Assembly (NCBI GenBank): GCA_000993275.1
Contig: LBVV01000009.1
Coordinates: 2,897 to 66,896 of the forward strand
Source of the DNA: a candidate division CPR2 bacterium GW2011_GWC2_39_10
Lineage (GTDB): Bacteria; Patescibacteriota; CPR2
DNA length: 64,000 nt
Reading direction: 5' to 3'
Shown: positions 1,442 through 51,738 of the stretch, piece after piece
Layout of the letters: each line of letters opens with the position of its first letter
Position numbering within the stretch: position 1 is the first letter of the stretch
Made by a program: the position numbers and the translations under genes
Notes under the pieces: model-generated
The model's database searches: none
Seen by the model: the letters and a program-made list of their open reading frames with translations, nothing else
Told to the model about the DNA's origin: nothing

Positions 1442-1466
1442 TAAACAATAAGCAAGAAACAATAAA

Positions 1467-1497
1467 CAAAAAAGCCTCGAAAGGGGCTTTTTTGTTT
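1467..1497 (+). terminator. Rho-independent terminator after fusA
   Basis: aaaaagcctcgaaaggggcttttttg: GC stem plus T-run. Confidence 0.5.
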
Positions 1498-1722
1498 CTT
1501 TCGTCATTGCGAAGGAGCGAAGCGACTGCGGCAATCTCATGGGAACACGATTAATGTCTCAGCCAAAGGTTGATCCGCCCTGGAGCGAGACAGGTCTTGG
1601 GCGGAAAATGCCAAATTACAAATAAGAAATATCAAAAAAGTATTAAGAATTGGAATATAGAATTTAGAATATGGTTTTTCTGCTTTATGCCATATTCTTT
1701 ATTCTCGCAAGTATTTGTCATG

Positions 1723-1819
1723 TAACTGCTCACAATCGTCATTGCGAACGATCCGGCAGCCGCCGGAGAGTGCGGCAATCTTGTTTCAAGCAGAGGAGAT
1801 TGCTTCGTTTCACTCGCAT
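1723..1819. repeat. 97-bp dispersed repeat copy 1 (starts with TIR-like gtaactgctcacaatc)
   Basis: 96/97 identical to 6206-6302; a related partial motif sits at 1501-1538 (tcgtcattgcgaagga...tgcggcaatctc). Confidence 0.75.
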
Positions 1820-2256: not shown

Positions 2257-3438
2257 ATGGCAGAAAAATTTCAAAGAAATAAAACCCATGTCAATGTTGG
2301 TACAATTGGTCACGTTGACCATGGAAAAACCACACTTACTGCTGCTATTACCCACGTACTTGCTAAAAAGGGTCTAGCTAAAGCAGAGAAATACGAAGAT
2401 ATCGATAATGCCCCCGAAGAAAAAGAAAGAGGCATTACTATCGCAACTCATCACTCTGAATATGAATCAGAGAAAAGACATTATGCTCACGTGGATTGTC
2501 CGGGTCATGCCGACTATGTTAAAAACATGATTACCGGTGCAGCCCAAATGGACGGTGCTATTTTAGTTGTATCTGCGGCTGACGGGCCAATGCCTCAGAC
2601 CAGAGAGCATATTCTTTTAGCTCACCAAGTTGGTGTTCCACATATGGTTGTTTACATGAACAAAACCGATATGGTTGACGATCCAGAATTAATTGACTTG
2701 GTAGAAATGGAAATTAGAGAGCTTCTATCCAAATACGAATTTCCCGGTGATGACACCCCAATTATTAAAGGATCAGCCCTAAAGGCACTAGAGGGCGATA
2801 AAGACGCCGAACAGTCAATTCTGGACTTAATAGATGCCGTAGACTCTTTTATACCGGATCCAAAACGAGAAATCGACAAACCTTTCTTAATGGCAGTTGA
2901 AGATGTTTTCTCAATTAAAGGACGAGGTACAGTTGCTACCGGAAGAATTGAAAGGGGCAAAGTTAAGGTTAATGAAGAAGTTGAAATAGTAGGTATTCAC
3001 CCAACCAGAAAAACAGTTGTAACCGGCGTTGAAATGTTTAGAAAACTTTTAGACGAAGGTTTCGCCGGCGATAACGTTGGACTACTACTTCGAGGCGTTG
3101 AAAAAGACGACATCGAAAGAGGCCAGGTTGTTATCAAGCCGGGCTCTATTACTCCTCATACAGAATTTGACAGTGAAATATATATTCTAACCAAGGATGA
3201 AGGCGGACGACATACCCCTTTCTTCAAGGGTTACAAACCTCAGTTTTATATTAGAACAACTGACGTTACCGGTGAAGTTACTTTACCTTCAGGTGTAGAA
3301 ATGGTTATGCCTGGCGATACGGTTAAATTAGGAATTAAGTTAATTGCTCCAATTGCAATGGAAGATGGAATGAGATTTGCAATCCGCGAAGGTGGTCGAA
3401 CCGTAGGCGCCGGAGTAGTAACTAAGATCATAAAATAA
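2257..3438 (+). CDS. tuf: Elongation factor Tu
   Basis: [18 protein letters not shown] and NKTD GTPase motifs; 393 aa. Confidence 0.97.
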
Positions 3439-6068: not shown

Positions 6069-6205
6069 TAAAAAAACCGCCCCATCATGGGATAGTCTCT
6101 CTCATTTGAGTCTCAATTGGATTACTAAAATCTCCATCTAAATGACTTAAGGCTGGCAGGAAATCGGAAAGACAACTAAAAAAATGAGTGTAACCCAGGC
6201 CCTTT

Positions 6206-6302
6206 GTAACTGCTCATAATCGTCATTGCGAACGATCCGGCAGCCGCCGGAGAGTGCGGCAATCTTGTTTCAAGCAGAGGAGATTGCTTCGTTTCACTCG
6301 CA
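6206..6302. repeat. 97-bp dispersed repeat copy 2
   Basis: 96/97 identical to 1723-1819. Confidence 0.75.
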
Positions 6303-15166: not shown

Positions 15167-15844
15167 ATGGCAGATTTTGTGAAGTCCGAAGAGAAATTAT
15201 ATGATGAAAGAGTCGTACAAATCGACCGAATCACCCGTGTAGTTGCCGGTGGCAGAAGGCTTAGATTTAGAGCAACCGTAGTGGTTGGAGACAAAAACGG
15301 CAGTGTTGGTGTTGGCATAGCTAAGGGTCGTGAGGTTGTTTTGGCAATTAACAAAGCTTCCCAAAAGGCTCGAAAAAGCATGGTTAAAGTTACCCTTAAA
15401 GGCACAACTATCCCTCATGAAGTCATGGTGAAATTCAGTGGCGCGAAAGTTTTTCTTAAACCCGCATCTAAGGGTACCGGTGTTATTGCCGGCGGAGCGG
15501 TACGCGCAGTGGTGGAGGTTGCCGGCATCCATGATATTTTAAGTAAAATGATTGGTTCTTCCAATAAAATCAATAATGTTTATGCAACTTTTGAAGCTCT
15601 AAAGCAATTAAAGGCAATAAACAATAAACAAGAAACAATAAACAAGAAAACAGAAAAGAAAATGGTAGAAAACCCTGTTAAGGAAGAAAATGAAATCGAA
15701 GAAAAGGCTGATGAAGCAGTAAAGGAAGAAATTGCTAAATCACCAAAAATAGAAAAAGAAAAAGCTGCCGAAGCGGTAAAAATTGAAAAAAAAGAAACTA
15801 AGGCAAAAAAAGATATTAAAGAAGTAAAAAAGAGTAGTAAATAA
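15167..15844 (+). CDS. rpsE: 30S ribosomal protein S5 with a long Lys/Glu-rich C-terminal tail
   Basis: S5 core ([11 protein letters not shown]) plus low-complexity tail. Confidence 0.93.
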
Positions 15845-22120: not shown

Positions 22121-22147
22121 AAAACCACTCGAAAGAGTGGTTTTTTA
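22121..22147 (+). terminator. Rho-independent terminator after rpsI, end of the ribosomal super-operon
   Basis: ccactc-gaaa-gagtgg plus tttttt. Confidence 0.7.
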
Positions 22148-22191
22148 GTAAACAGTTAATGGCAAGCAGAAACCACCCTCATTTTTGCTTT

Positions 22192-22246
22192 GTCAATCCG
22201 GACATTCCTTTAGAAAATACAATCAAGTGATCCGGAATCCAGAAAG
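22192..22246. repeat. Family B hairpin repeat (gtcaatccggacattc...gatccggaatccagaaag)
   Basis: ~80% identical to 25215-25264. Confidence 0.6.
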
Positions 22247-22283
22247 AAAAAAATATCAATCCTGTCCTTTTCTGAAGCAAAAA

Positions 22284-22448
22284 GTAACTGCTCACAATCC
22301 TGCATTTTATGTTCATATATTATATTAAACTATTTATGTCATACCAAACTTGATTTGGGATCCACTTGTTCAGTTAAATATCGAGCTTTCTGGATTCCGG
22401 ATCAAGTCCGGAATGACAAGAAAGGGGGGGGTGATTGTGAGCAGTTAC
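22284..22448. mobile_element. MITE-like element, 165 bp, with perfect 16-bp terminal inverted repeats
   Basis: gtaactgctcacaatc at 22284-22299 and gattgtgagcagttac at 22433-22448; the interior holds a family-B palindrome (gtcatacc...ggattccggatcaagtccggaatgacaag); the same TIR begins the 97-bp repeats at 1723 and 6206 and ends the copy at 39754-39769. Confidence 0.6.
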
Positions 22449-22798
22449 AGCAAAAAATATTGATTTTTGGCCATATTTATGATAAAATATAAAATCAATC
22501 AAAATGTAACTTTGCAAAAAAATAAAAAAAGTGGAATGAATTTAGGAGGGGATTCGGATGTAATTGAAATGGTATCTCGTTTTGTTTGCAAGTTTCGTTG
22601 TGTGCGGACTGTTTTATTGGTACATAAGAAAGATCAATAAGGTAAGGGCTTTAGAACTCTGGAGATTACAGATTACAGATTCTATTATGGAAAATGGACT
22701 TTCAACAGTAGAAATGGGGGAACGAGGCGCGTAGGTAGAAATCCAACTTGCTTAAGATGTGTAAATTGTTTATGATAATTTAGTAAATAGGAGCAAGA

Positions 22799-23244: not shown

Positions 23245-23455
23245 GCCACTTTTTGGAAAGTGGCGTAAAACTTTCGGCTGTCTTCGCCAAAGTGTCGGAA
23301 GTAGCACTCATTCTTTCTCAAAAAAATTGCCGCTCCTCCGGATCGCCCTCACGCCCAGCTAAAGCTGGCCTCCGGTAGGAATTTTTTTGAGATAGTCATT
23401 CGTTTCTTCCTCTCTTTGGCTGCGGAGGCCGATTTAGGACTCGTAAAATCGAAGA
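23245..23455. repeat. Diverged copy of family C repeat
   Basis: Shares gccactttttgg..agtggc hairpin, ctcaaaaa and cgtaaaatcg blocks with 25289-25415. Confidence 0.35.
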
Positions 23456-23467
23456 TTTTTTGGTAAT

Positions 23468-24028
23468 ATGAAGTCAAAAGGAGCATTGGTGAAAATAAAA
23501 GATAATAGTGACTTGTTTAATGAATGTAAAGACGCCTTTAGGTTAGAAACGTTATCCGTTTACTCAATACCTGAAGAGGAAAAATACCTCCAATTATATT
23601 ATGATGGCAAGCCACTACCACCACAAGAATGTTGTATGACTGAATGGCACACAATGTTAACAAAAGCGAAAGAAAGAGGCGCCTCTTTTAAAAGATTGAG
23701 GTCTTTACCGGAAAGTTTTAATAACTACATAAGAGCCGAAATTGAATGGGGCTACATATATAATGCCGAATTCGGTGAAAATATAAGAATGATTACTCCT
23801 AGTTTGATAAAAGAGAAAGTTAGCAAGGAAAAACTTGTAGATTTTTGGATTTTTGATAATGCTTCAGTTTTACTAATGAATTACGATACGGAAGGTCATT
23901 TCCTTGGCAGCAATCTAGTGGATGACTTCAGGGAAGTTGATAAATATATAAAGATAAAAGAGTTGCTATGGCCGCTAGGCCAGAAGCTGGAAGATTTTTT
24001 AAAAGAATATCGCGCTAAAAAGTATTAA
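23468..24028 (+). CDS. Hypothetical protein, 186 aa
   Basis: Clean ORF; no recognisable motifs. Confidence 0.45.
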   Translation: MKSKGALVKIKDNSDLFNECKDAFRLETLSVYSIPEEEKYLQLYYDGKPLPPQECCMTEWHTMLTKAKERGASFKRLRSLPESFNNYIRAEIEWGYIYNAEFGENIRMITPSLIKEKVSKEKLVDFWIFDNASVLLMNYDTEGHFLGSNLVDDFREVDKYIKIKELLWPLGQKLEDFLKEYRAKKY

Positions 24029-24103
24029 AACTCGACAAATTTGTGGTTTTTTTGCTATAATTAAGCCATGAATTTATATTGTGCAATTTTTTTATAAGTT
24101 CTA

Positions 24104-24133
24104 GATTCCCGATCGGGTCGGGAATGACGAAGG
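24104..24133. repeat. Family B hairpin repeat (gattcccgatcgggtcgggaatgacgaagg)
   Basis: Palindrome cccgatcggg flanked by the ggaatgac motif. Confidence 0.5.
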
Positions 24134-24205
24134 GAAAGCAGATTCCGGCTTTTATCTAAAGAGGGTAGGCACGTAAAGACTTGTTTATTGCTTATTGCTT
24201 TTTGT

Positions 24206-25126
24206 TTATTTTTTAACTAGTGGTAATGTACAGCATCTAAAGCCTGCTCCGGTTTTGGGGGCTTCGTCAAATTTTACCGGAATAATTTTTATGTTCATAT
24301 CAGTTAAAAGTTTAATTAATCTTGTTGCATTGTGCCGCATAATAATTGTGTTCGGGTCAATTACCAAAACGTTGGAAAATAGGGCGTCTTGTTCTTCCCT
24401 CGAGATATCAATTAACGCGTAATTATCTAAAATCTCTTGAGGAATTTCTTTTAAACCATTTTTATAAATCAGGGCCTTGCCAGCGACAATTGGGCCAAAA
24501 GTACAGTCTAGGTGCAGACATTCTTCGTCGTCTTCCGGTAGTTTCATGAATACGGGAATAACTTTATATTTGGTATCCCTTAAAGCATCTTTCAAAAAAT
24601 TTAAGCCTTCTTCAGTTGATCTTTGACCGATTCCACAAAAAACAAAACCTTTGTCCAAAATTATGTCGCCGCTTTCTAAAATTATCCCTTCGGGAATTCG
24701 AATAATTTTATCTTCAGGAATTAAATCCAAAATATCTTTTAAGGCTTCCCATTCCCGTTTACGGCTTATCTTTTTCATGTTGCAGATAAAAAACAAATCG
24801 CCGATAACAAAGGCAATGTCGCGGGGTGGAAGCTGGTCGCATACGCCGGTAGAACAGGGCAATGGAAGCAAGTGCCGAACGTGAACGCCTAAATCCTTCA
24901 AAACCAATTCTAAACCGTCAAATTCCTTTTTTAAACTTTCGGCCGTAGGTTTATCGTCAGAGAAATAATATTTTTTTTGAGTATTATTAACTATTTCCAA
25001 AGTTTTAGGGTCAGAAAGGAAATTATCCGGATAGCCAATTACCACATCCCTTAAAGTGTCCGTTTCATTCAAGCAATGGGGGATTAAGTTTTCTTTTTTA
25101 TTTTTAGTAATTATTTCTTCTTTCAT
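24206..25126 (-). CDS. Amidinotransferase-superfamily enzyme (arginine deiminase / DDAH-like)
   Basis: C-terminal GAGFRCCTLPL (catalytic Cys, compare ADI GGGPRCMSMPL) and HLDCTFGP His motif; 306 aa. Confidence 0.5.
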   Translation of the reverse strand: MKEEIITKNKKENLIPHCLNETDTLRDVVIGYPDNFLSDPKTLEIVNNTQKKYYFSDDKPTAESLKKEFDGLELVLKDLGVHVRHLLPLPCSTGVCDQLPPRDIAFVIGDLFFICNMKKISRKREWEALKDILDLIPEDKIIRIPEGIILESGDIILDKGFVFCGIGQRSTEEGLNFLKDALRDTKYKVIPVFMKLPEDDEECLHLDCTFGPIVAGKALIYKNGLKEIPQEILDNYALIDISREEQDALFSNVLVIDPNTIIMRHNATRLIKLLTDMNIKIIPVKFDEAPKTGAGFRCCTLPLVKK

Positions 25127-25214
25127 AGGTTCTAGAAGATTTTATCAAGGAAAGGGCTAGGTGTTAAGACGATTTTTCATAAATGCTATTTAGTGGTGTT
25201 TTTCTCACATTTCC

Positions 25215-25415
25215 GTCATTCCGGACATTCATTTAAAAAGTACAATCATTTGATCCGGAATCCATTCTTTTTTAAAGTACTTTCTTTTCCACTTTTGGCA
25301 GCAAAAGTGGAGCAAAACTGCCGACACGCTACAAAATCGGATTAGCACATAAGGCTCATTCACTCTCAAAAAGTCGAACTCGTCGTGCATCTCGATTTTT
25401 CCGCTACAGTCGGAC
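25215..25415. repeat. Composite repeat: family B hairpin (25215-25264) plus family C element (25289-25415)
   Basis: Near-identical to 31405-31593 apart from indels; conserved blocks ccacttttggcagcaaaagtgg, aaactgccgaca, ctcaaaaagtcgaactcgtcg, cgctacagtcgga. Confidence 0.7.
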
Positions 25416-25484
25416 AAAAGAAGGGAAATTTGATTTAAAGGCAAAAATTATTTTTTTAATCAATTCTTTGCTATAATAACATTA

Positions 25485-25811
25485 ATGAAAAAGCGGCGGA
25501 TAAAATTTATCTTAAAAGCAACGGATTTTGTTTTGCTAACATTTATTCTTTTTCCGATGGCTTTTTATATTAATCGAATTTATGGTTGCGATGCTTGTCA
25601 TTTAAATTTCATTCAGAACCTCTTAAAATCTATTGCCCAATACTTAATCAAGGTTCAGGTTTTAGTGTTTGCGCCGGCCTTAGTCGTTTTTTTTATCCCG
25701 TTTTCCATTGTCATGGAATGGGCAAGCGGCAGTCCCAGGGAATGGAAGCTGACTGCATATATCGCTTGCATCATTAGTCTTATGGCTCTAATGTATTTTG
25801 TGTTTACATAA
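25485..25811 (+). CDS. Hypothetical membrane protein
   Basis: Hydrophobic ORF, 108 aa. Confidence 0.35.
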   Translation: MKKRRIKFILKATDFVLLTFILFPMAFYINRIYGCDACHLNFIQNLLKSIAQYLIKVQVLVFAPALVVFFIPFSIVMEWASGSPREWKLTAYIACIISLMALMYFVFT

Positions 25812-25869
25812 AATACAATTGGCACTTATGAAGCGACCATGGTAAAATAGTTTTTAGTTAAGGAGGGAT

Positions 25870-26265
25870 ATGGGTTATATCGACAAAATTGCTTCTTCAT
25901 TTGCAAACTACCTGGTTGCGGTTTGGCAGCAGATTAGTTGGATTTTTACTACGGATACAATTAAAATGAAGCCGCTGTTATTTTTGGATATTATTTTAGT
26001 GGCCTTTGTTTTCTATTGGATTTACATTTTTCTTAAAAAAACCACAGCTTCACGATTCCTACCCGGGTTCCTCGCATTTTCTGTTTTTGCCGGCCTTGGT
26101 TATCTTTTTGATTTAAATGCCGTTGCTTGGTTATTTTCTAAAATGTTTTTAGTCATAATTGTGGCAATTCCCATAATATTTCAACCGGAAATTAGGGAAG
26201 CATTAAGTTTGATGTCAAAGAAAAAATCTTTGGTTAACGCTCCGATTAATAAGGAAGATAGATGA
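25870..26265 (+). CDS. CdaA-like N-terminal transmembrane module with no diadenylate cyclase (DAC) domain
   Basis: 3 TM helices ending in the CdaA linker motif IIFQPEIREAL (compare B. subtilis CdaA IIIFQPELRRALEQLGR); stops ~25 aa later; start of cdaR overlaps its stop (ATGA). Confidence 0.55.
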   Translation: MGYIDKIASSFANYLVAVWQQISWIFTTDTIKMKPLLFLDIILVAFVFYWIYIFLKKTTASRFLPGFLAFSVFAGLGYLFDLNAVAWLFSKMFLVIIVAIPIIFQPEIREALSLMSKKKSLVNAPINKEDR

Positions 26266-27482
26266 AGTACATAACCAATAATTTTTTTGTTAAATTTTTA
26301 TGTTTGGTGCTTGCCTTTGTTTTTTGGGTTTTTGTGATGGCAGCTGACACCAGAATGGGTTATTTCCCCAAAGAAATCGAGGTAAAAGTTAGAAATATTG
26401 CTAACGGTCTTGCGGTAGTGGAGGATACTGTTCCAATAAAAATTAAAGTAAAAGCTCCCTTAACCGTATATAATAAATTAAATGATAAAAGTTTTGAGGC
26501 TTACGTGGACGCTTCCAGTATAAAAGAAGCCGGGGCCGAAAATTTAGATATTAAAATTGATTCAAAGGAAGCGGGTGTTCAGGTAGTAGGGTCGGACCCT
26601 AAATCCTTCCTATTAAAATTGGAAGATGAAGAAACTAAAAAAATGGCTATAACCCTAAGCCATAAGGGAAAACCGTCTGATGATTATAAAGTTGGAACCG
26701 GGGAAATTTCGACAAAAGACGTTATAGTGACCGGTTCCCCTACAAAATTAAAAAAAATAGCAGATGTTGTGGCGTTGATAGAGTTAAAGGGTAATGAAAA
26801 AGGAAATATTGATGCCGACATGCCGGTAGTCGCTTTAGACGAAGATAACAATACCATTAATTATCTGGTTTTTGATCCGGAAATTGTGGGTGTTAAGATG
26901 GCCATTATTCCAAAGGTGGTGTCTAAATCCGTTGGTATAAAAGTGAACTTAACAGGTGAGGCGGCTAAAGGCTACTGGGTAAGCAAGATAAAAACCGATC
27001 CGGAGATTGTGGCCGTTAAAGGAGAGCTTGAAAAAATAAAAAATATGGAATATGTGGAAACTGAAAAAATTGATTTGGTGGGGAATTCGCAAACTATGAT
27101 TGCTCGTGCTAAGTTTCAGTTGCCGGAAGGTGTAAAAGTGGCAGATAATATAGACAAAGTTAATGTCCAAATTTTTATTTCTAAAATTGATGCTACCAAA
27201 ACCATATCGCCCGCGGTAAACTTTAAAAGGGGAAATCCGAAATATAAAGCGGAGACCTTAAATATGCCGGCCGTTACCTTGTCCGGTTCGCAAGCCGCCC
27301 TAAATGCCGCTACTTCTGAAAATGTTGTTTTGAATATAGATTTGTCAAGTTACGGACCGGGCGAGCAAAAAATTCAAATTAAAAAAGAAATGGTGACAGT
27401 TTCTGGTGAAGTTGAAGTGACTAAAGTTTTACCGGAGTTTATAACAATAAAAATAACGGAGATAGCAACACCAACCCCATGA
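26262..27482 (+). CDS. cdaR: YbbR-like (CdaR) protein with repeated YbbR domains
   Basis: N-terminal TM plus 3-4 degenerate YbbR-like repeats; canonical position after cdaA. Confidence 0.6.
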   Translation: MKYITNNFFVKFLCLVLAFVFWVFVMAADTRMGYFPKEIEVKVRNIANGLAVVEDTVPIKIKVKAPLTVYNKLNDKSFEAYVDASSIKEAGAENLDIKIDSKEAGVQVVGSDPKSFLLKLEDEETKKMAITLSHKGKPSDDYKVGTGEISTKDVIVTGSPTKLKKIADVVALIELKGNEKGNIDADMPVVALDEDNNTINYLVFDPEIVGVKMAIIPKVVSKSVGIKVNLTGEAAKGYWVSKIKTDPEIVAVKGELEKIKNMEYVETEKIDLVGNSQTMIARAKFQLPEGVKVADNIDKVNVQIFISKIDATKTISPAVNFKRGNPKYKAETLNMPAVTLSGSQAALNAATSENVVLNIDLSSYGPGEQKIQIKKEMVTVSGEVEVTKVLPEFITIKITEIATPTP

Positions 27483-28501
27483 AATTAGAAGATAGACATA
27501 ATTTAAAACTTATCATTATCCTATTCCTGGCGCTGCTATTGGGTGGTACTATTGGTTTTGTTGCTTTTACGGACGAAGACATACTAACCGCTTTCTACAG
27601 GACTATCATTTTAATGCTGACTCACTTTGACCATGAAATTCCGGAGACTTGGGGAGTAAGGCTTCTTGTCTTGGGTCTAATTTTTGGAAGTCTTATCATT
27701 ATGGCATATTTAATAAAGATATTTGCTCAGTATATTTTTGAAGGAACGCTGAGTGATAATATAAGGAGGCGAAGAATGAAAAAAGAAATAGATGCTATGA
27801 AAGACCATTTTATAGTTTGCGGTTTTGGGCGTGTCGGACAACAGATCGTTCAGGAGCTTATAAATGAAGATGTCAATTTTGTCGTTTTAGATCGTGACGA
27901 AAAAGCATTTCATGATAGAATATCAAAGAAGATTAAATTTTTGCCTAAAGATCCAACATTCGAGGATAATTTGCGTGATGCGGGTATTTACAGGGCCAAG
28001 TCTTTAATTGCGGGTTTGGGTGAAGATACGGATAATTTGCTTCTAACATTGGCGGCCAGATCCCTAAATCCCAACCTTTATATCGTTTCCAGATGTAGTT
28101 TTGAGGAAAATGCGGCAAAATTAGAAAAGGCAGGAGCGGACAGAGTTGCAATGCCGTATCAAATTGGCGGATATCATATGGCCACTATGGCCTTGAGGCC
28201 GGCAGTTGTTGATTTTTTAGATGTCATTATAGACAGCAAGCATCACGAATTGCAAATAGAAGAAGTTTGTGTTGAAGAAGATTCGCCGCTAATTGGCAAG
28301 CCATTAACGGAATATTTATCCAGAAAAAGAACGGGTGCCACAATTTTGGCAATTAACCGTTATGATGGAACATCTGTTATTAATCCGGCGGGAGACGAAA
28401 TAATTTATAGTAAAGACAAACTAATAATTATGGGCACAAAGAAGCAGTTGGAAAATTTGGCCAGTTCAATCTTTAGCGAGGAGAGTATTATTGTTAAGTA
28501 A
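27479..28501 (+). CDS. Membrane protein with RCK/TrkA-N and TrkA-C domains (K+-channel-like, no GYG filter)
   Basis: 2 TM helices then HFIVCGFGRVGQQ Rossmann (RCK_N) and a C-terminal RCK_C; no TVGYG selectivity filter seen. Confidence 0.55.
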   Translation: MKLEDRHNLKLIIILFLALLLGGTIGFVAFTDEDILTAFYRTIILMLTHFDHEIPETWGVRLLVLGLIFGSLIIMAYLIKIFAQYIFEGTLSDNIRRRRMKKEIDAMKDHFIVCGFGRVGQQIVQELINEDVNFVVLDRDEKAFHDRISKKIKFLPKDPTFEDNLRDAGIYRAKSLIAGLGEDTDNLLLTLAARSLNPNLYIVSRCSFEENAAKLEKAGADRVAMPYQIGGYHMATMALRPAVVDFLDVIIDSKHHELQIEEVCVEEDSPLIGKPLTEYLSRKRTGATILAINRYDGTSVINPAGDEIIYSKDKLIIMGTKKQLENLASSIFSEESIIVK

Positions 28502-28844
28502 AGAATTTACAGAAGAGCAAAAAGAGATTTTGAAAAAAAAGCTTAAAGATATCGAGGCAGAACTGGAAGAAAGAGCAGTTAAGTCGCCGGATAATATTTT
28601 TTGGAAGGCAAAATTTGATGATTTTGGCATAGAGGACGACGATGAGGTCTTAGAAGACGAAGTTTTCGATGTCAAAGTTGCCCAAATAAAAAATTTGTTA
28701 GAAGATAAGGCGCAAATTGAGTTAGCGTTGGAAAAGTTTTATAACGGAAGTTACGGTATTTGTGCGAATTGCCGTCAAGAAATTGATGTAGAAAGATTAA
28801 AGGCTTTCCCTGAAGCAACATTTTGTATAAAATGTGATTCATGA
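28491..28844 (+). CDS. DksA/TraR-family C4 zinc-finger protein
   Basis: Coiled-coil N-terminus; C-terminal CANC...CIKC. Confidence 0.6.
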   Translation: MLSKEFTEEQKEILKKKLKDIEAELEERAVKSPDNIFWKAKFDDFGIEDDDEVLEDEVFDVKVAQIKNLLEDKAQIELALEKFYNGSYGICANCRQEIDVERLKAFPEATFCIKCDS

Positions 28845-29770
28845 AAAAGGATTATAAAATTGATAATGAGGGATCCGGCAAAAGACTGGATGTTTTTTTA
28901 GTTTCCAGGGAGACTAATTATTCCAGGTCTTTTGTCCAGAAATTAATAATTGGGGGTAGGGTGCTAATTAATAATGTTTCCGGAAAAGCGAATATGATAT
29001 TAAAAGTGGGAGACTCCGTTTCATTTACAGCTCCGGAAGCAAAAAAAGAAGAAAAATTAAAGCCGTCTAACGATATAGAGATCCCTATAATTTTTGAGAA
29101 TGAAGAATTTTTAGCAATAAACAAACCGGCCGGGCTTGTTGTTCATCCGGCATTTGGTCACCCGGATGATACCTTAGTAAATATTCTTGTATCAATGCGT
29201 CCGGATTTAATGCGTCTGGATAATTTACGTCCGGGAATTATTCATCGGCTGGATAAAGATACTTCCGGCATAATGCTGGTTGCAAAAACCCAGGAAGCGG
29301 TAACTTTTTTATCCAAGGAAATTGAAAATAGAAAAGTAAAGAAACATTATTTGGCTTTGGTTTTTGGCAAGGTCGATCCTAAAAGGGGAGAGATTAATGT
29401 TCCCCTTAAAAGATCTTCGGTTAATAGAAAAAAAGTTGATGTTTCCGCGGCGGGTAAAACAGCAATTACGAATTATGAAGTGGCGGAGGAACTGGGCAAC
29501 GCGACATTAATAAATGCTTTTCCGGTAACCGGCAGAACGCATCAAATTAGAGTTCATTTTTCGTATATTGGTCATCCAATAATTGGCGATGAAACATATT
29601 CGTCAGGGTTACAACTTCTGGAGGCGAAAAAGTTGGGGGTTACCAGGCAAATGCTTCATGCTTATCGCTTGGGTTTTAAAGACCCCAAAACTAAAAAATG
29701 GCTGGAACTAGAGGCTCCGGTTCCTCAAGATTTTCAAAAGTTACTTCAGAAAACAAGGATGGAAAAATGA
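28841..29770 (+). CDS. rluD: RluA/RluD-family pseudouridine synthase
   Basis: S4 domain N-terminus; catalytic HRLDKDTSG. Confidence 0.85.
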   Translation: MKKDYKIDNEGSGKRLDVFLVSRETNYSRSFVQKLIIGGRVLINNVSGKANMILKVGDSVSFTAPEAKKEEKLKPSNDIEIPIIFENEEFLAINKPAGLVVHPAFGHPDDTLVNILVSMRPDLMRLDNLRPGIIHRLDKDTSGIMLVAKTQEAVTFLSKEIENRKVKKHYLALVFGKVDPKRGEINVPLKRSSVNRKKVDVSAAGKTAITNYEVAEELGNATLINAFPVTGRTHQIRVHFSYIGHPIIGDETYSSGLQLLEAKKLGVTRQMLHAYRLGFKDPKTKKWLELEAPVPQDFQKLLQKTRMEK

Positions 29771-30684
29771 TCGGCGACATTATCCAATTGGAGAAGGCGA
29801 GAATGGCCTATAAAAATGGCACCCTAAAACAGTCATATTTAATTACCGGTCCGTGGGATATCGGAAAAAAAGATTTTGCCATAGCGTTTTCGGCAATGAT
29901 TTTTTGCGAAACTAAAGACAATTGCGGTAAATGTAAGGGCTGCAAAAAAACCAATTCTTTTTCTAATCCCGACTTCTATGTTTTAGATGAGGAAGGGCAA
30001 ATAAAAATTGATTCGATAAGAGAGCTAAATAAAAAATTAAATTTAAAGCCCTATGAGTTTGAAAGTAAGGTAGCTTTAATAATTGGGGCAGAGAGAATGA
30101 CAATTGAAGCGGCAAATAGTTTACTAAAGATATTAGAAGAACCGCCGGAAGATTCTGTTATTATTCTTACATCCGCCGTACCCGGTCAATTGCTAGAAAC
30201 CATTAAGTCCAGATGTCAGGATATCAAGTTAAAAAATATGCCTAAAAAAATGATTGTTGAAGAATTAATTAAAAACCATGGCTTGAAAAGCGATGAGGCC
30301 TTAAGAATTGCCAATATCGCTTTAGGAAGGCCAAAATTAGCGGAGAAATTGGTCGTAAATGATGATTATGGTGAAGAGGTTGAATTTTTAAGAGAAATTG
30401 CAAAAAAAAATTTGTGCGATAGGTTCAAATTGGCGTCAGATTTTGCCGAAAAAAAGAATGTGTTAAGGTTAATCGGTTATTGGGAGACTTTTTTTATGGA
30501 TCTTTTAAAAGCAAAAATGGATGGCAGGGATGACCTGTCAACAACAAAACATAAGGTTAAAGATTTCTCTTGGGACATCTGGGCAATCGTAAACATACTT
30601 GACATTTTAGAGAAAATGAGGGAATATATCCAGAGTAAAATCAAAAATAAACTAATTCTAGAGAACATATTCTTAAATATATGA
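29767..30684 (+). CDS. holB: DNA polymerase III delta-prime subunit
   Basis: AAA+ with zinc module CGKCKGCKK; ATG 29767 overlaps the rluD stop. Confidence 0.7.
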   Translation: MIGDIIQLEKARMAYKNGTLKQSYLITGPWDIGKKDFAIAFSAMIFCETKDNCGKCKGCKKTNSFSNPDFYVLDEEGQIKIDSIRELNKKLNLKPYEFESKVALIIGAERMTIEAANSLLKILEEPPEDSVIILTSAVPGQLLETIKSRCQDIKLKNMPKKMIVEELIKNHGLKSDEALRIANIALGRPKLAEKLVVNDDYGEEVEFLREIAKKNLCDRFKLASDFAEKKNVLRLIGYWETFFMDLLKAKMDGRDDLSTTKHKVKDFSWDIWAIVNILDILEKMREYIQSKIKNKLILENIFLNI

Positions 30685-31367
30685 AGCTTGCCGGAATCCA
30701 ATTTCAATACTCTCTTAAAATTTATGATTTCGATCAGAACGACCTGGAAATTTCATTGGGTGATTTTGTTTTGGTAGAAACTATTCAGGGTCAGGAAATA
30801 GGAAGGGTGGTTTACTTAAATAAAAAGAAAAAAACGAGTGATGAAGATGCCAGGCCGATACTCCGAAAAGCAACTTTGGAAGACCGGGAAAAAATGAAAG
30901 AGTTAAAAGAGGAAGCTGCCACTTATTTGCCGGATTTCGAAAAACAAGTCAAGAGTTTTGGGCTTAAAATGAGACCGCTTGCCGCTGATATTTCTGTTGA
31001 TGAAAAGAGATTGACTTTTTATTTTATGGCAGAAAGCAGGATTGATTTTAGGGATATGGTAAGAGAATTGGCCAGGGAATATAAAAAGCAAATAAGACTC
31101 TTACAGGTTGGTGCCAGAGACGGAGCCCGAATTGTGGGCGGTTATGGCAGGTGCGGTTTAGTAGTCTGCTGTCAGAGATTCCTTACGGACTTAGAAAGCA
31201 TCACCATGGATATGGCGAGGAATCAGAATTTGGCGGCTAAATCAGGTTCTAAAATTTCCGGAATTTGCGGCAAACTAATGTGCTGTCTTGCATACGAAAC
31301 TGATGATAAAAATAAGATTGAGAAAGAGATGGAAAAAGAAATTGATGCTGCTCAAAGCCGAGACTAA
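30681..31367 (+). CDS. PSP1-domain protein (RicT/YaaT-like)
   Basis: GRCGLVVCCQRF and CGKLMCCLAYE cysteine motifs; holB-yaaT synteny as in Firmicutes. Confidence 0.7.
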   Translation: MKLAGIQFQYSLKIYDFDQNDLEISLGDFVLVETIQGQEIGRVVYLNKKKKTSDEDARPILRKATLEDREKMKELKEEAATYLPDFEKQVKSFGLKMRPLAADISVDEKRLTFYFMAESRIDFRDMVRELAREYKKQIRLLQVGARDGARIVGGYGRCGLVVCCQRFLTDLESITMDMARNQNLAAKSGSKISGICGKLMCCLAYETDDKNKIEKEMEKEIDAAQSRD

Positions 31368-31404
31368 ATAATTGTGCATCTAATTTCAGAATGGGTTTAA
31401 GTAT

Positions 31405-31593
31405 GTCATTCCGGACTTGATCCGGAATCTATTATTTCTTTATTTCTATTTCCACTTTTGGCAGCAAAAGTGGAGCAAAACTGCCGACACGCTACAAAAT
31501 CGGATTAGCACATAAGGCTCATTCACTCTCAAAAAGTCGAACTCGTCATCTTCTCTTCGCCAAGTGCATCTCGATTTTTCCGCTACAGTCGGA
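31405..31593. repeat. Composite repeat: family B hairpin (31405-31429) plus family C element (31452-31593)
   Basis: Near-identical to 25215-25415, with an 18-bp insertion (atcttctcttcgccaagt). Confidence 0.7.
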
Positions 31594-31643
31594 GAAGAAT
31601 TATAGATATTGATATCGCAAATAGTATGGACTATTATTAATTT

Positions 31644-31880
31644 ATGTTTGGTGCATGTTTTGTAACTGATTACGGATATTATATGCTTGCCGGATTTATT
31701 ATTGCAGGTTTATTATCCGGGTACATTTCATTTTTATTAATTAGAAAACTAATCAAGACAAAGAAAGACTCTTTACTGATACCAATAATATTATTAGGAA
31801 TAGTTTTTCTTATTTCGGCCATTTTTATTTTGAATTTTAAACAACTTGCATGGATGTCGACATGTATTGCCTCAGTTTAA
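31644..31880 (+). CDS. Hypothetical small membrane protein
   Basis: Two hydrophobic helices; 78 aa. Confidence 0.3.
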   Translation: MFGACFVTDYGYYMLAGFIIAGLLSGYISFLLIRKLIKTKKDSLLIPIILLGIVFLISAIFILNFKQLAWMSTCIASV

Positions 31881-31902
31881 TACAAATAATAATAACAAAT
31901 AA

Positions 31903-31931
31903 TTGACTATAAGGCATAATTTAGATATAAT
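31903..31931 (+). promoter_or_regulatory. Consensus sigma70 promoter upstream of the tRNA cluster
   Basis: TTGACT-17nt-TATAAT. Confidence 0.55.
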
Positions 31932-32019
31932 AGTACAGAATTTCGGCCTCTTTTTTTGTTTTTAAAAATGTGTCAATTGAGTTTTAATGGTAGGGGGCTG
32001 GTTGCATGGATAAAAAAAT

Positions 32020-32076
32020 GCCGATGTAGCGTTAGTGGCAGAGTCCGGCAACTGACGGATAAACAGTAGGTTGACC
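32020..32076 (+). pseudogene. Pseudo-tRNA: duplicated, degraded 5' half of tRNA-Thr(UGU)
   Basis: gccgatgtagcgttagtggcagag...aactg...aaacagtaggttg matches the 5' two-thirds of the downstream tRNA-Thr, then diverges; no T-arm or acceptor 3' strand. Confidence 0.5.
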
Positions 32077-32105
32077 GTAAGGCTAGGTAAGTGAGCAGGA
32101 AAAAT

Positions 32106-32180
32106 GCCGATGTAGCTCAATGGCAGAGCAACTGTTTTGTAAACAGTAGGTTGTGGGTTCGAATCCCTCCATCGGCTCCA
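32106..32180 (+). tRNA. tRNA-Thr (anticodon UGU), CCA encoded
   Basis: Cloverleaf built by hand: acceptor gccgatg/catcggc, D stem gctc/gagc, anticodon stem actgt/acagt with loop tttgtaa, T-loop ttcgaat. Confidence 0.8.
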
Positions 32181-32265
32181 TAAAAGTTATCAGGAATCAG
32201 TAACCAGGAAACATTAATAGGGATAGAAGATTGTTTACTGATTACTGTTTCCTGATTCCTGACAC

Positions 32266-32351
32266 GGGCAGGTACCCAAGTGGCCAACGGGGGCAGACTG
32301 TAAATCTGCTGGCATTCGCCTTCGAAGGTTCGAATCCTTCCCTGCCCACCA
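32266..32351 (+). tRNA. tRNA-Tyr (anticodon GUA), long variable arm, CCA encoded
   Basis: Acceptor gggcagg/cctgccc; anticodon loop ctgtaaa; T stem gaagg/ccttc. Confidence 0.85.
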
Positions 32352-32444
32352 ATAACAATAAACAATTAACAAGGAACAAAAAACAAAAGCACAGTTTTAC
32401 GGATAAAATGTTTTTTGTTGATTGCACTTTGTTTTTTGGCTCGG

Positions 32445-32520
32445 GCCCAGATAGCTCAGTTGGCAGAGCGCATCCATGGTAAGGATGAGGTCACGGGTTC
32501 GAATCCCGTTCTGGGCTCCA
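32445..32520 (+). tRNA. tRNA-Thr (anticodon GGU), CCA encoded
   Basis: Acceptor gcccaga/tctgggc; anticodon stem catcc/ggatg with loop atggtaa; T stem acggg/cccgt. Confidence 0.8.
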
Positions 32521-32617
32521 GATAACTTGCTAAGTTTTCAAACAATGTTACCTCAATAATTTGCCCTAGTAACTTGCAAACTTACCAATTAATAAACTAG
32601 AATAAAAGGAGAAATAA

Positions 32618-32782
32618 ATGGCAAAGAAAGAAAATCGGCCGGTAATTGCACTTGCTTGCGGTGAATGTAAAAACAGGAACTATTCAACTACAAAAAATAA
32701 GAAGAATACGACTGACAGGATAGAATTAAGCAAATTTTGTCCTTTTTGCCGAAAAACCACAGCTCACAAAGAAACGAAATAA
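32618..32782 (+). CDS. rpmG: 50S ribosomal protein L33
   Basis: [54 protein letters not shown]; C4 zinc ribbon; RBS aaaggag. Confidence 0.85.
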
Positions 32783-32870
32783 AACTTTATATAGTTCGAT
32801 ATTTGACAAGTAAATGTTGATATTTTAGAATGGTTATGGGTGTAAATATAACTGTTGATTATTATTCAAA

Positions 32871-33533
32871 ATGAAAACTAATCTTAAATCAAAAGCCATA
32901 TCTTTGCGTAAGCAAGGCTTCTCTTTGAAAGAAATAAGTGAAGATTTAGGTATAGCAAAAAGTACGGCATCCTTGTGGTTAAGGGATACTGTTTTAAGCG
33001 CAAATGCTATAAAAAGGATTGAAAGTAGAATAACTAAAGGACAAATAAAAGCGGCTGAAATAAAGAGAGAAAAAACAAGAAAATTGTTAAATGAATTTCA
33101 AGCAAAAAGCGATGTGTTAGTTGGGCGAACTATATTAAATATTGATATGATAAAGATAATATGTTCATTGATTTATTGGTGTGAGGGGGGTAAATATAGC
33201 GATAATTTCGTACAATTTACCAATTCAGATCCCAGTCTTATGGGTACATTTCTGCAATTACTTAGGCAGGTATTTATGGTAGATGAAAAAAAATTTAGGG
33301 TTTGTATGCATCTTCATGACTATCATAATGAAAAAAAGCAAAGACAATTTTGGTCTATGGTAACAGAAGTTCCCGAGAGCCAGTTTATAAAGTCATACAA
33401 TAAGCCAAATACGGGAAAGAGAATTAGAAAAGGTTATCAAGGATGTGTGCAGTTGAGGTATTATGATGCGGTAGTATCGAGAGAATTATTAGCAATAGCT
33501 AAATCTTTCATGAATAAACTTGAAAACAAATAA
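32871..33533 (+). CDS. HTH-domain protein with a possible single-motif LAGLIDADG-like endonuclease core
   Basis: N-terminal HTH (LRKQGFSLKEISEDLGIAKSTASLWL); central LIYWCEGGKYSD resembles a LAGLIDADG (LAGxxDGDG) motif; stop is 1 nt before tRNA-Trp. Confidence 0.35.
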   Translation: MKTNLKSKAISLRKQGFSLKEISEDLGIAKSTASLWLRDTVLSANAIKRIESRITKGQIKAAEIKREKTRKLLNEFQAKSDVLVGRTILNIDMIKIICSLIYWCEGGKYSDNFVQFTNSDPSLMGTFLQLLRQVFMVDEKKFRVCMHLHDYHNEKKQRQFWSMVTEVPESQFIKSYNKPNTGKRIRKGYQGCVQLRYYDAVVSRELLAIAKSFMNKLENK

Positions 33534-39656: not shown

Positions 39657-39769
39657 GTCATTCCAAACTCGACTACAGAATCTAGGAAGAATGGATTCCT
39701 GGTCAAGCCTGCCTCGCTTTGCTCATCAAGGCGGGCCAGGAATGACAAGTTGGGATTGTGAGCAGTTAC
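39657..39769. repeat. Partial MITE copy ending in the right TIR gattgtgagcagttac
   Basis: gtcattcc...ggccaggaatgacaag palindromic body plus the same 16-bp TIR as 22433-22448. Confidence 0.55.
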
Positions 39770-40796
39770 AGTTATGTCTCTTGACTAAAATCGTTTGCTT
39801 GTGATCTTTAAGTTTGTTAAAATTGATGCTAGAGAGCGCAAAGGATGAAAAAACATTTTATTCACACAAAAAAAGCATTTGCGGTTATTTTAACTATATT
39901 CTTATTTTTATCCCTATTTTTCTTTGATGTTTCTAAAGTGACAGCGGCAGATCCGCCTTATTTTGTGTATCTTACTAATTTTAGCGTAGATGCAAAAATC
40001 GTCGGGCAGCCTTTTAATCTACAGATTCAAGCCTGGGATCCTAATAATATGGGCAACAATCCTATTCAGACAATGAATGGAACAATTTCGCTTCAAAACT
40101 CCACTTCTTCTATTTCTCCAAGCCAGGTTACTATGTCGGGGGGGGAGTGGATAGGACAGGTAACTATTACCAAATCTACGACAAGTGAAGTTATAACGGC
40201 CATGGCTACCGGTTTTGTGTCTTCATCTTCGCCGCAGTTTACTGTTTTGCCTGATAGTAGACAGGTAATACTGGGTGTTTATGGAGGGAATGTCCAATCT
40301 AAAACAGTAACGAACAGACTGGATAACTCTTTGCAAGTTAGAGCTATGGATAAATATGGTAATGCTATATCAAATGCCGGTATTTTATTTAAAAGCGTTG
40401 GTTTTCCGCCGGGTGCTAGCGGATATTCATTATCCTCCGGCAGCGTTTTGACGGATATAAATGGCATTGCTTCGACCCAATTTACTTTGGGCAACAAAAT
40501 AGGTACGTATATGGTTCAGGCCACTATTATTTCTGGCCTTTCGCCGCCGGTTACTTTTTATTCGAATGCAACAGCAGATGTCTTAAACAATCTTTTTATC
40601 TCACCAATTATTGCGGTTATACCCAAGGGAGCCCAACAGGTTTTTCAAACTACCGGAACCGATCGGCATGGCAATCCTGTTTCTGTTTCCGGAGTTGCGT
40701 GGTCGGTAGAAAGAGGCGGCGGTACCATTGATCAAAACGGTGTCCTGATCGAGGTCTTTTATCGCGATCTGCCGGGAAGCGACAAGGAGTTCCTCC

Positions 40797-51511: not shown

Positions 51512-51714
51512 CTTCTCTTTCTACTTTTTGGCAGCAAAAAGATAGCAAAAACTGCCGACAAAGCTACAAAATTGGGTTAGGACTGAGTCTTGTTCACTCT
51601 CAAAAAGTCGAACTCGTCGTAACCTCCTCAAACACAACTTTTTGAGATGTTCCCTGCGACATCCGACCTCAGCTTCGCCGAAGGCGAGACGGGAGTCCAC
51701 CACAATTTTTACGC
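51512..51714. repeat. Family C repeat, diverged copy with an internal insertion
   Basis: Shares ctttttggcagcaaaaag hairpin, aaactgccgaca, ctcaaaaagtcgaactcgtcg and cgctacagtcgga with 25289-25415. Confidence 0.6.
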
Positions 51715-51738
51715 TACAGTCGGAAAAAATGAAATATT

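What the first reader, a model, noticed from the sequence alone, without database searches (positions are those of the whole stretch)
25215..25415. Family C composite repeats (~130-200 bp) with conserved stem-loops: four copies, two near-identical
Copies at 25215-25415 and 31405-31593 are near-identical apart from an 18-bp indel. Diverged copies sit at 51512-51714 and 23245-23455. The conserved blocks include a perfect hairpin (ccacttttggcagcaaaagtgg). Indels shift the reading frame between copies, so they are not protein-coding. All copies are intergenic. They are candidate structured sRNA genes or a second MITE family, and each is attached to a family B hairpin.
Basis: seen in the sequence. 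Interest (0 to 1): 0.5.

Follow-up and report, generated by a model that had tools for sequence, protein, structure and literature searches.

The report
Structured hairpin repeat family in CPR2
The four "family C" copies are real members of a previously undescribed, non-coding, about 170-220-base repeat, found only in a few closely related uncultivated groundwater bacteria (candidate division CPR2), that folds into a long conserved hairpin; it behaves like a small mobile or recombining DNA repeat rather than a proven small-RNA gene.

Summary
The window holds four + strand copies (23245-23432, 25289-25414, 31452-31593, 51522-51724) and no others. Flanking proteins identify the organism as candidate division CPR2 bacterium GW2011_GWC2_39_10 / GWC1_39_9.

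I found 19 distinct copies, all in this genome and two or three relatives. There is no match in Rfam, phages, plasmids, viral contigs or the literature searched.

Every copy has the same architecture: a T-rich lead-in, a short 5' hairpin, a CAAAACU linker, and a long rod topped by an A/T-rich stem that carries one of four exchangeable apex loops. Pairing is strongly maintained through compensatory changes.

Between genomes about 87% identical, copies are present or absent, swap subtype at one site, invert, form tail-to-tail pairs, exchange halves and carry nested small hairpins.

They lack terminal inverted repeats, target duplications, a conserved promoter, a terminator and any linked protein gene.

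Best reading (0.5): a non-autonomous, REPIN/BOX/ERIC-like structured repeat. Rivals are a sibling small-RNA family with a CCUCC loop, a cis element, or the RNA partner of an unknown enzyme.

The 18-bp difference between copies 1 and 2 comes from apex deletions seen only in this assembly.

The parts
25289..25414 (+). Copy 1 (framework A-i), a short form lacking 42 nt of the apex. P1 hairpin 25289-25310. The closing helix pairs CCGAC (25321-25325) with GUCGG (25409-25413).
   Evidence: covariance model 126 bits, E = 2e-29. The long form is at L001 8984-9153.
25215..25264 (+). Family B hairpin (GTCATTCCGGA...TCCGGAATC with a 33-nt loop) upstream of copy 1. The leader follows at 25265-25288.
   Evidence: (repeat D7 with 22192-22241, 88%).
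31452..31593 (+). Copy 2 (framework A-i), a short form lacking 28 nt of the apex.
   Evidence: 146 bits. The long form is at L001 15147-15316 and in L025.
31405..31429 (+). Family B hairpin (GTCATTCCGGACTTGATCCGGAATC) upstream of copy 2. This hairpin is conserved in the related genome L022, which has no family C copy here.
51522..51724 (+). Copy 3 (framework A-ii), full length. Apex stem 51598-51608 pairs with 51637-51647, with a 28-nt loop CGAACUCGUCGUAACCUCCUCAAACACA at 51609-51636. An extra inserted hairpin lies within 51657-51698.
   Evidence: (174 bits).
23245..23432 (+). Copy 4 (framework B-ii, apex type 2). P1 hairpin GCCACUUUUUGGAAAGUGGC at 23245-23264. The apex cassette at 23327-23383 is 100% identical to that of Bx, a copy at a different locus in the related genome.
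   Evidence: (MFE -73.5 kcal/mol, z = -3.65).

Best explanation
Family C is a lineage-restricted, non-coding, non-autonomous repeat of candidate division CPR2 genomes.

**What it is (shown).** Its unit is a folded single strand. A T-rich lead-in is followed by a 7-10-bp hairpin (P1), a CAAAACU linker, and a rod about 130-170 nt long (P2-P6). The rod is closed by CCGAC/GUCGG in framework A or UCGGC/GCCGA in framework B. It ends in an A/T-rich stem, UCUCAAAAA.../...UUUUUGAGA, that carries one of at least four exchangeable apex loops.

**How it behaves (shown).** Copies turn over. They are gained, lost, replaced by another subtype, inverted together with their upstream GTCATTCC hairpin and leader, paired tail to tail, recombined with each other, and invaded by small GC-rich hairpins that also occur in other repeat families of the genome.

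**How it most likely works (inferred).** The element multiplies or is homogenised at the DNA level, by copy-and-paste next to REP-like hairpins and/or by gene conversion between copies. The hairpin is what the unknown, trans-acting machinery or the single-stranded intermediate requires. That is why both arms change together, as in REPINs.

**Effect on the host (inferred).** Any effect would be secondary and in cis, for example as a stable hairpin in read-through transcripts or as a substrate for rearrangements.
For: **Real family, narrow range**
- 19 distinct copies were found.
- The window genome is CPR2 GW2011_GWC2_39_10 / GWC1_39_9. The relatives are bacterium CG2_30_37_16 and one or two further metagenomic genomes.
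- The other genome and metagenome hits to the 18-mers are chance matches in unrelated, mostly coding sequence.

**Conserved fold**
- In an unbiased MAFFT alignment of 8 framework-A copies, RNAalifold predicts 43 pairs, 10 of them with compensatory changes.
- In the covariance-model alignment of 19 distinct copies, 94.4% of cells are paired against 78.5% in shuffles. 29 of 43 pairs have double changes.
- Sliding the partners gives 39-51% paired and at most 9 such pairs.
- Frameworks A and B have unrelated rod sequences at equivalent positions, for example AAAAUCG/CGAUUUU against GCCAAGG/CCUUGGC.

**Turnover between syntenic genomes (L022, about 87% identical)**
- Copy 1's site holds a type B element in L022.
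- Copy 2's site is empty there, although its family B hairpin is conserved.
- L022 has a copy (A7) that the window lacks.
- The hairpin-leader-element unit lies in opposite orientation in L041 and L017 at the same intergenic site.
- L057 and L041 share one left flank but differ in apex and right flank.

**Signs of duplication, conversion and decay**
- Copies 1 and 2 are identical in the long form.
- The paralogues c4o and Bx (93.4%) are closer to each other than the orthologues c4 and c4o (90.5%), which indicates concerted evolution.
- One copy (A5) has several broken pairs.

**Nesting at the DNA level**
- The extra hairpin in copy B4 is 93% identical to the inner loop of a family B hairpin at window 39694-39745.

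**No gene-like signals**
- No promoter consensus was found for copy 1 or copy 4, and copy 1 lies between two divergent promoters.
- Neither end has a hairpin followed by a U-run, although the organism uses canonical terminators such as the one at 22125-22150.
- Among copies between same-direction genes, 7 are sense and 3 antisense.
- Many assembly contigs break inside the element, as expected for a multicopy repeat.
Against: - There are no terminal inverted repeats and no target-site duplication. Pairing between a copy's own flanks is no better than between flanks of different copies (-3.5 against -3.05 kcal/mol).
- No transposase, reverse transcriptase or recombinase is consistently linked.
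- The IS200-type Y1 transposase in the related genome has unrelated end hairpins and a TTAC target that family C does not share. Family C is near only 2 of its 7 or so insertion sites.
- No clean filled-versus-empty site defines the insertion boundaries.
- The apex loops are conserved in sequence far better than neighbouring coding DNA. Apex 1 is identical in most copies from both genomes, and 57 nt of apex 2 are 100% identical between genomes. That is what a functional RNA or protein-binding site would show.
- Extra hairpins sit at internal loops, as in the expansion segments of structured RNAs.
- G-U pairs outnumber A-C mismatches 22 to 10 on the + strand. That alignment was fitted in the + orientation.
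Confidence: 0.5

Rival explanations
1. Family C is a family of independently expressed "sibling" small RNAs. The rod is a scaffold and the apex loop is the active site. The 28-nt apex-1 loop contains ACCUCCU, which resembles the 3' end of 16S rRNA. It could pair with Shine-Dalgarno sequences (GGAGG) and damp translation of many mRNAs.
For: - Covariation is strong and the multi-helix fold is conserved.
- The loop sequence is invariant across most copies and across both genomes. Apex 2 also carries CUCCUCC and CCUCC.
- The c4/c4o pair is retained at an orthologous site.
- There is a slight excess of G-U over A-C on the + strand.
- Leaders of type B copies contain a TAAAAT/TATAAA-like box 10-15 nt upstream of P1. 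This is read directly from the sequence.
Against: - No conserved -35/-10 pair was found, and the consensus scan finds none for copies 1 and 4.
- Neither end has an intrinsic terminator, although the organism uses canonical ones.
- CCUCC is mutated in several otherwise intact copies: CUUCC in B2, CCUGC in B3, and absent in A6. It is also absent from apex types 3 and 4.
- Positions are not conserved between related genomes, and orientation relative to genes is mixed.
- The minus strand often folds at least as well as the plus strand.
- The only match of 11 nt or more to the loop complement in the window is one generic Shine-Dalgarno site.
Confidence: 0.2
2. Family C is a cis-acting structural element of transcripts or DNA. 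It could be an RNA-processing or stability hairpin, a barrier between transcription units, or a nucleoid-protein site, recruited repeatedly in intergenic regions just upstream of promoters or downstream of stop codons.
For: - Several copies end 10-70 nt upstream of a strong extended -10 promoter: copy 1 (TGCTATAAT at about 25463-25471), copy 4, c4o, Bx and B2.
- Others start within about 20 nt of a stop codon in convergent gaps: copy 3, A4 and A7.
- ERIC, REP and Correia elements are known, from established literature, to act this way once inserted.
Against: - There is no consistent position or orientation relative to genes.
- The presence/absence differences in a close relative show that neighbouring genes do without the element.
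- A simple barrier or stabiliser would not need an invariant 28-nt loop.
Confidence: 0.15
3. Family C is the RNA or single-stranded-DNA partner of a trans-encoded enzyme not present in the window. Candidates are a guide or scaffold RNA for an RNA-guided transposase or recombinase (omega-RNA or bridge-RNA-like), or an orphan retron-like template RNA.
For: - The 3' boundary is sharp, directly after GUCGGA, and is followed by unrelated flanks.
- The 5' end is a hairpin followed by a long rod with internal loops.
- Copies frequently sit next to REP-like hairpins, which IS110/IS1111-type elements are known to target (established knowledge).
- The scaffold is conserved while the apex cassette is exchangeable.
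Against: - No TnpB, IscB, IS110-type recombinase or reverse transcriptase was found next to any copy among the neighbours tested.
- The apex types are few and conserved, not spacer-like.
- There is no Rfam match to omega-RNA, HEARO or other mobile-element RNA families.
- The two-sided CGCUACA internal loop of framework A is not conserved in framework B.
Confidence: 0.08

Closest known systems
REPINs (REP doublets forming hairpins, mobilised by RAYT)
   Same: - Dispersed, intergenic and non-coding.
- A long hairpin whose pairing is kept by compensatory changes.
- Subfamilies persist in related genomes.
- No terminal inverted repeats or target duplications of the classical kind.
- Co-occurs with short REP-like palindromes that have a fixed 5' box (GTCATTCC...).
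   Different: - The arms are not two copies of a short palindrome.
- The rod has conserved asymmetric internal loops, a separate 5' hairpin and an exchangeable apex.
- No RAYT flanked by the repeats was found. The only Y1 transposase seen is a multicopy IS200 with unrelated ends.
BOX elements of Streptococcus pneumoniae
   Same: - Modular composite of conserved outer modules that pair with each other, with a variable middle.
- No known transposase.
- Intergenic, with a stable predicted structure.
   Different: - No sequence relationship is expected, because BOX is defined by pneumococcal sequences (not tested here).
- The variable part of family C is a set of alternative apex cassettes, not a tandemly repeated boxB.
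ERIC/IRU and Correia (CREE/NEMIS) elements
   Same: - An imperfect palindrome of about 100-200 bp.
- Size variants arise from internal insertions at fixed points.
- Presence or absence differs at orthologous sites between relatives.
- Possible RNA-level effects when co-transcribed.
   Different: - ERIC and Correia elements have terminal inverted repeats and TA target duplication. Family C has neither.
- Different phyla, with no shared sequence.
Sibling small RNAs with C-rich anti-Shine-Dalgarno loops (for example the LhrC family and RsaE)
   Same: - Several near-identical copies per genome.
- A C-rich CCUCC motif exposed in a hairpin loop.
   Different: - Those genes have their own promoters and Rho-independent terminators and sit at stable loci. 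Family C shows none of these.

Membership tests
Classical MITE | Terminal inverted repeats at the two ends | tested here: not met
   The 5' end (TTTCTTTT-CCACTTTTGG...) and the 3' end (...CGCTACAGTCGGA) are not inverted copies of each other. Flank pairing is no better within a copy than between copies.
Classical MITE | Target-site duplication flanking each copy | tested here: not met
   No direct repeat is visible at the junctions of 17 copies.
Classical MITE | Small, non-coding, multicopy, with variable presence at orthologous sites | tested here: met
   Copies are 126-220 nt. There are 4 copies in 64 kb and 19 distinct copies overall. Presence, absence and replacement are seen against L022.
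Classical MITE | A related autonomous insertion sequence with the same ends | tested here: inconclusive
Whole genomes could not be scanned with the profile.
REPIN/RAYT system | Hairpin pairing maintained by compensatory change | tested here: met
REPIN/RAYT system | Each arm is a REP unit, so that two inverted REPs form the element | tested here: not met
   The arms carry no internal palindrome or shared REP box. The structure includes a separate 5' hairpin and asymmetric loops.
REPIN/RAYT system | A single-copy RAYT gene flanked by the repeats | tested here: inconclusive
   The Y1_Tnp gene at L033 3741-4169 (E = 2e-34) is a multicopy IS200 inserted 3' of TTAC at about 7 sites, and its own end hairpins are unrelated to family C. 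No RAYT was seen, but the complete genomes were not searched.
IS200/IS605-derived PATE | Subterminal hairpins and target tetranucleotide shared with a resident IS200/IS605 | tested here: not met
   The IS end hairpins (ACCGCCGG...CCGGCGGT) and the TTAC target are absent from family C ends and flanks.
Independent sRNA gene | Own promoter | tested here: inconclusive
   No consensus promoter was found for copies 1 and 4. AT-rich TAAAAT-like boxes occur in type B leaders but are not conserved in type A.
Independent sRNA gene | Intrinsic terminator at the 3' end | tested here: not met
   The 3' end is followed by purine-rich or unrelated sequence. On the other strand, the hairpin is followed by an A-run.
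Independent sRNA gene | Conserved secondary structure with covariation | tested here: met
Independent sRNA gene | Discrete transcript | not testable with these tools
   No transcriptome data are available here.
Any Rfam 15 family | Score at or above the family's gathering threshold | tested here: not met
   Only tRNAs pass in the window. E-value searches of copies 1, 3 and 4 and of the long form give only noise below 21 bits.
Retron non-coding RNA | A reverse transcriptase gene immediately downstream | tested here: not met
   The neighbours of the window copies are DUF6879, a DDAH/ADI-like enzyme, a small ORF plus CdaA_N/YbbR, PSP1, tRNAs and an fn3 protein.

The most novel reading that the evidence does not exclude
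Family C is a new class of structured RNA specific to CPR2 bacteria. It would be a conserved rod scaffold presenting an exchangeable apex loop, expressed from many loci. It would act either as a 16S-3'-end mimic that titrates Shine-Dalgarno sites, or as the RNA partner of an as yet unidentified hairpin-specific mobilisation or recombination enzyme in these reduced genomes.
Probability: 0.15. Interest if true: 0.65.

Novelty: new variant of a known kind. Interest (0 to 1): 0.4.

Why it matters
Candidate Phyla Radiation genomes are small and compact, and little is known about their non-coding content.

This genome carries a zoo of nested hairpin repeats: GTCATTCC hairpins, a TGTAACTGCTCACAATC box and family C. 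Family C alone occupies four intergenic gaps in 64 kb. It breaks metagenome assemblies and marks sites of gene gain, gene loss and rearrangement.

If the element is only selfish DNA, it is a useful marker of strain-level rearrangement and a warning for assembly curation. If it is transcribed and functional, its strong covariation would make it one of the few well-supported structured RNAs specific to a CPR lineage.

Tried and rejected
- **Known RNA family.** Four Rfam searches gave no match.
- **Phage or plasmid origin.** No hits in viral contigs, phage records or plasmid records.
- **Protein coding.** On the minus strand GGAGG sits in the apex loop, but there is no start codon within 14 nt. 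Indels between copies are not multiples of three (for example +20 nt in P1), so the short ORFs 25229-25444 and 51521-51703 are spurious.
- **Outer helix or inverted repeat formed by the T-rich 5' flank and A-rich 3' flank.** Pairing within a copy is no better than between copies.
- **Target-site duplications.** None seen.
- **Mobilisation by the IS200-type Y1 transposase of the related genome.** Its ends and TTAC target are unrelated to family C, and there is no consistent adjacency.
- **Deciding the functional strand.** The evidence conflicts. Minus-strand folds are often more stable for framework A and plus-strand folds for framework B-ii. G-U outnumbers A-C 22 to 10 in an alignment fitted to the plus strand. 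In the unbiased type A alignment the counts are 2 and 2.
- **Specific trans target for the apex loop.** The window has only one 11-nt Shine-Dalgarno-like match.
- **Alternative pairing UUGGCA/UGCCGA between the P1 loop and P2.** It has one compensatory column, but the helix is weak and wobble-rich in framework B. I did not pursue it.
- **Literature.** Three searches found nothing relevant.
- **RNAalifold on the all-subtype MAFFT alignment.** It failed to recover the rod because the two frameworks are misaligned by one column. A covariance model solved this.

Full report
**1. The observation**

- Copies 1 and 2 share 99 nt at 100% and a further 33 nt at 97%.
- Copy 3 shares the same blocks, including an exact 26-mer. 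A 20-mer from it occurs three times in the window where 0.00 are expected.
- Copy 4 is far more diverged, but profile and covariance-model searches recover it at E = 7e-35 and 2e-9.
- No other copy lies on either strand of the window.
- All four are on the + strand and lie between real genes.

The family C cores are 25289-25414, 31452-31593, 51522-51724 and 23245-23432. Copies 3 and 4 have no family B hairpin beside them.

**2. Source and range**

- The encoded proteins are identical to those of candidate division CPR2 bacterium GW2011_GWC2_39_10 / GWC1_39_9, from Rifle groundwater.
- An 18-mer scan of 185,579 species genomes found real copies only in the MAG "bacterium CG2_30_37_16". Its syntenic sequence is about 87% identical to the window. 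The other four hits are chance matches.
- A metagenome scan gave 18 real loci, all from the same few populations. The remaining 18 were chance hits in unrelated sequence.
- Both patterns were specific to apex type 1, so copy numbers are lower bounds.
- Rfam, viral contigs, phage and plasmid records and the literature gave nothing.

**3. The short forms in the window**

Another assembly of the same population (L001) is 99.98% identical to the window outside three sites. It carries 42 more nucleotides in copy 1 and 28 more in copy 2.
- Three to four independent assemblies have the long form at each site (L001, L002, L003/L004, L025). There, copies 1 and 2 match the model identically over 170 nt.
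- A further assembly (L032) lacks the 5' half of copy 2.
- The junctions fall at or near points where different copies start or stop sharing sequence. For example, contig L002 ends exactly at ...CTTTTTGAG.

I therefore suspect assembly error. Real deletion variants of an unstable palindrome cannot be excluded. Either way, the "18-bp indel" is not a true difference between the two loci.

**4. Anatomy**

The full element is 166-221 nt. Single-sequence folds of 14 copies give the same plan:
- a T-rich lead-in;
- hairpin P1;
- the linker (AG)CAAAACU;
- a rod closed by CCGAC/GUCGG or UCGGC/GCCGA, with several helices and conserved internal loops;
- an A/T-rich apical stem, UCUCAAAAAGU/ACUUUUUGAGA, with a large loop.

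There are two frameworks whose rod sequences are unrelated but occupy equivalent positions.
- Framework A includes copies 1-3.
- Framework B includes copy 4.

There are four apex cassettes.
- Type 1 has the 28-nt loop CGAACUCGUCGUAACCUCCUCAAACACA and occurs on both frameworks.
- Type 2 is on copy 4.
- Types 3 and 4 occur in the relatives.

Extra GC-rich hairpins are inserted at internal loops in copy 3, B3, B4 and c4o, and inside P1 in A4 and A5.

**5. Is the fold selected?**

Yes.
- In a plain MAFFT alignment of eight framework-A copies, RNAalifold predicts 43 pairs, 10 of them with compensatory changes.
- In a covariance-model alignment of 19 distinct copies, 94.4% of cells pair, against 78.5% after shuffling.
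- 29 of 43 pairs show double changes.
- Sliding the partners by 1-3 columns gives 39-51% pairing and at most 9 such pairs.

Two caveats apply. That alignment is fitted to the model, and the sequences are related. Even so, the unbiased type A result and the wholesale replacement of rod sequences between frameworks point the same way.

The data do not say which strand, or whether RNA or single-stranded DNA, is the folded species.
- Type A copies are almost purely Watson-Crick.
- G-U against A-C counts are 22 to 10 in the fitted alignment and 2 to 2 in the unbiased one.
- Minus-strand folds are often more stable.

**6. Behaviour between genomes**

L022 is syntenic with window 24099-32800. The comparison shows the following.
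- At copy 1's site, L022 has a type B element that is 88% identical to copy 4.
- At copy 2's site, it keeps the family B hairpin but has no family C copy.
- It has a minus-strand type A copy downstream of the DDAH-like gene, which the window lacks.
- The copy 4 orthologue is retained, but the gene that follows it differs.

Other loci add to this picture.
- L041 and L017 carry the hairpin-leader-type B unit in opposite orientations at one intergenic site.
- L041 and L033 have tail-to-tail pairs.
- L057 and L041 share a left flank but differ in apex and right flank, which shows recombination between copies.
- Paralogues within one genome are closer (93.4%) than the orthologues (90.5%).
- The extra hairpin in B4 is a copy of the inner loop of a family B hairpin at window 39694-39745, so small hairpin modules nest into one another as DNA.

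**7. What is missing**

- There are no terminal inverted repeats and no target duplications. Flank pairing is no better than cross-copy controls.
- No linked transposase, reverse transcriptase or recombinase was found.
- An IS200-type element is active in the related genome. It inserts 3' of TTAC and occupies about 7 sites. Its ends are unrelated to family C, and family C is near only two of those sites.
- No conserved promoter was found. Copy 1 lies between two divergent promoters.
- Neither end has a terminator, although the organism uses canonical ones.
- Among copies between same-direction genes, seven are sense and three antisense.

**8. Interpretation**

The population behaviour fits a non-autonomous repeat that multiplies or is homogenised at the DNA level. 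That behaviour includes turnover, replacement, inversion, recombination, nesting, identical paralogues, one decaying copy and a narrow host range. The hairpin would be maintained because the single-stranded intermediate or an unknown trans-acting factor needs it, as proposed for REPINs. BOX and ERIC elements are the closest analogues in modular build and insertion variants. I give this reading 0.5.

The main counter-evidence is that the apex loops are conserved in sequence far better than nearby coding DNA. The apex-1 loop also exposes ACCUCCU, which resembles the 3' end of 16S rRNA. This keeps a sibling-sRNA reading alive (0.2), although CCUCC is mutated in several intact copies and absent from two apex types.

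A cis-acting structural role (0.15) and an RNA partner of an unseen enzyme (0.08) remain possible.

**9. Verdict**

This is a real, previously undescribed, strongly structured repeat family of CPR2 genomes. It is a new variant of the known kind "structured intergenic repeats". It is not a classical MITE, and it is not shown to be an sRNA gene. Interest is moderate (0.4). Transcriptome mapping would settle the main question.

Noticed in passing
window 1721-1818 and 6205-6302: Two 98-nt copies, 99% identical, contain a GTCATTGCGAACG...GCAATCT palindrome and the box TGTAACTGCTCACAATC. They bracket the EF-Tu gene (2257-3438) and a 690-aa beta-propeller gene (3996-6068) that sits between tuf and the S10 operon.
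   Followed up: partly
window, 16 sites (for example 21625, 22410, 24121, 25215, 31405, 39657, 39739): GTCATTSC boxes that start REP-like hairpins (family B and relatives, with variable stems and loops) occur 16 times where 2.2 are expected.
   Followed up: partly
window 22282-22298, 22437-22454, 39756-39773: The box TGTAACTGCTCACAATC, or its complement, recurs next to GTCATTCC hairpins. This suggests a further composite repeat family.
   Followed up: no
window 23433-24092 compared with L022 1298-1357: The DUF6879 gene (23468-24028) is absent from the related genome. In the window it is followed by a duplicate of the promoter fragment (TTTTTGCTATAAT) and the first ~25 nt of a glyoxalase gene that is intact in L022. 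This marks a gene gain and loss hotspot next to copy 4.
   Followed up: partly
window 25463-25487; L022 1318-1335: Strong extended -10 boxes (TGCTATAAT) lie only 6-7 nt upstream of ATG start codons. This suggests leaderless or nearly leaderless mRNAs in this organism.
   Followed up: no
window 32871-33533: A 220-aa ORF with a weak homeodomain-like HTH match lies between tRNA-Thr and tRNA-Trp. In many bacteria tuf sits at that position. Here tuf is at 2257-3438.
   Followed up: no
L033 3600-4215; L022 1-173; L052-L061: An IS200-type element (142-aa Y1 transposase) occupies about 7 different sites in the CG2_30_37_16-like population. It always lies 3' of TTAC and ends in ...GGCGGTAGATTATT.
   Followed up: yes
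L027 about 1540-1620 (- strand), L009 about 1345-1420, L057 936-1000: A further shared module (about 60-70 nt, ...GGCAAGATRAARGCCRCCG... with a CCACCG/CGGTGG-type hairpin) directly follows three type A copies.
   Followed up: no
window 29484-29537 compared with L001 13223-13232: Inside the pseudouridine synthase gene region the window has 54 nt where L001 has 10 nt. The gene is split in L001 and intact in L002. This is probably an assembly difference.
   Followed up: no
window 1421-1473, 15611-15663, 32352-32390: A-rich repeats of the form AAACAATAAACAAGAAACAATAAACAA recur in three intergenic or gene-end positions (repeat D2).
   Followed up: no
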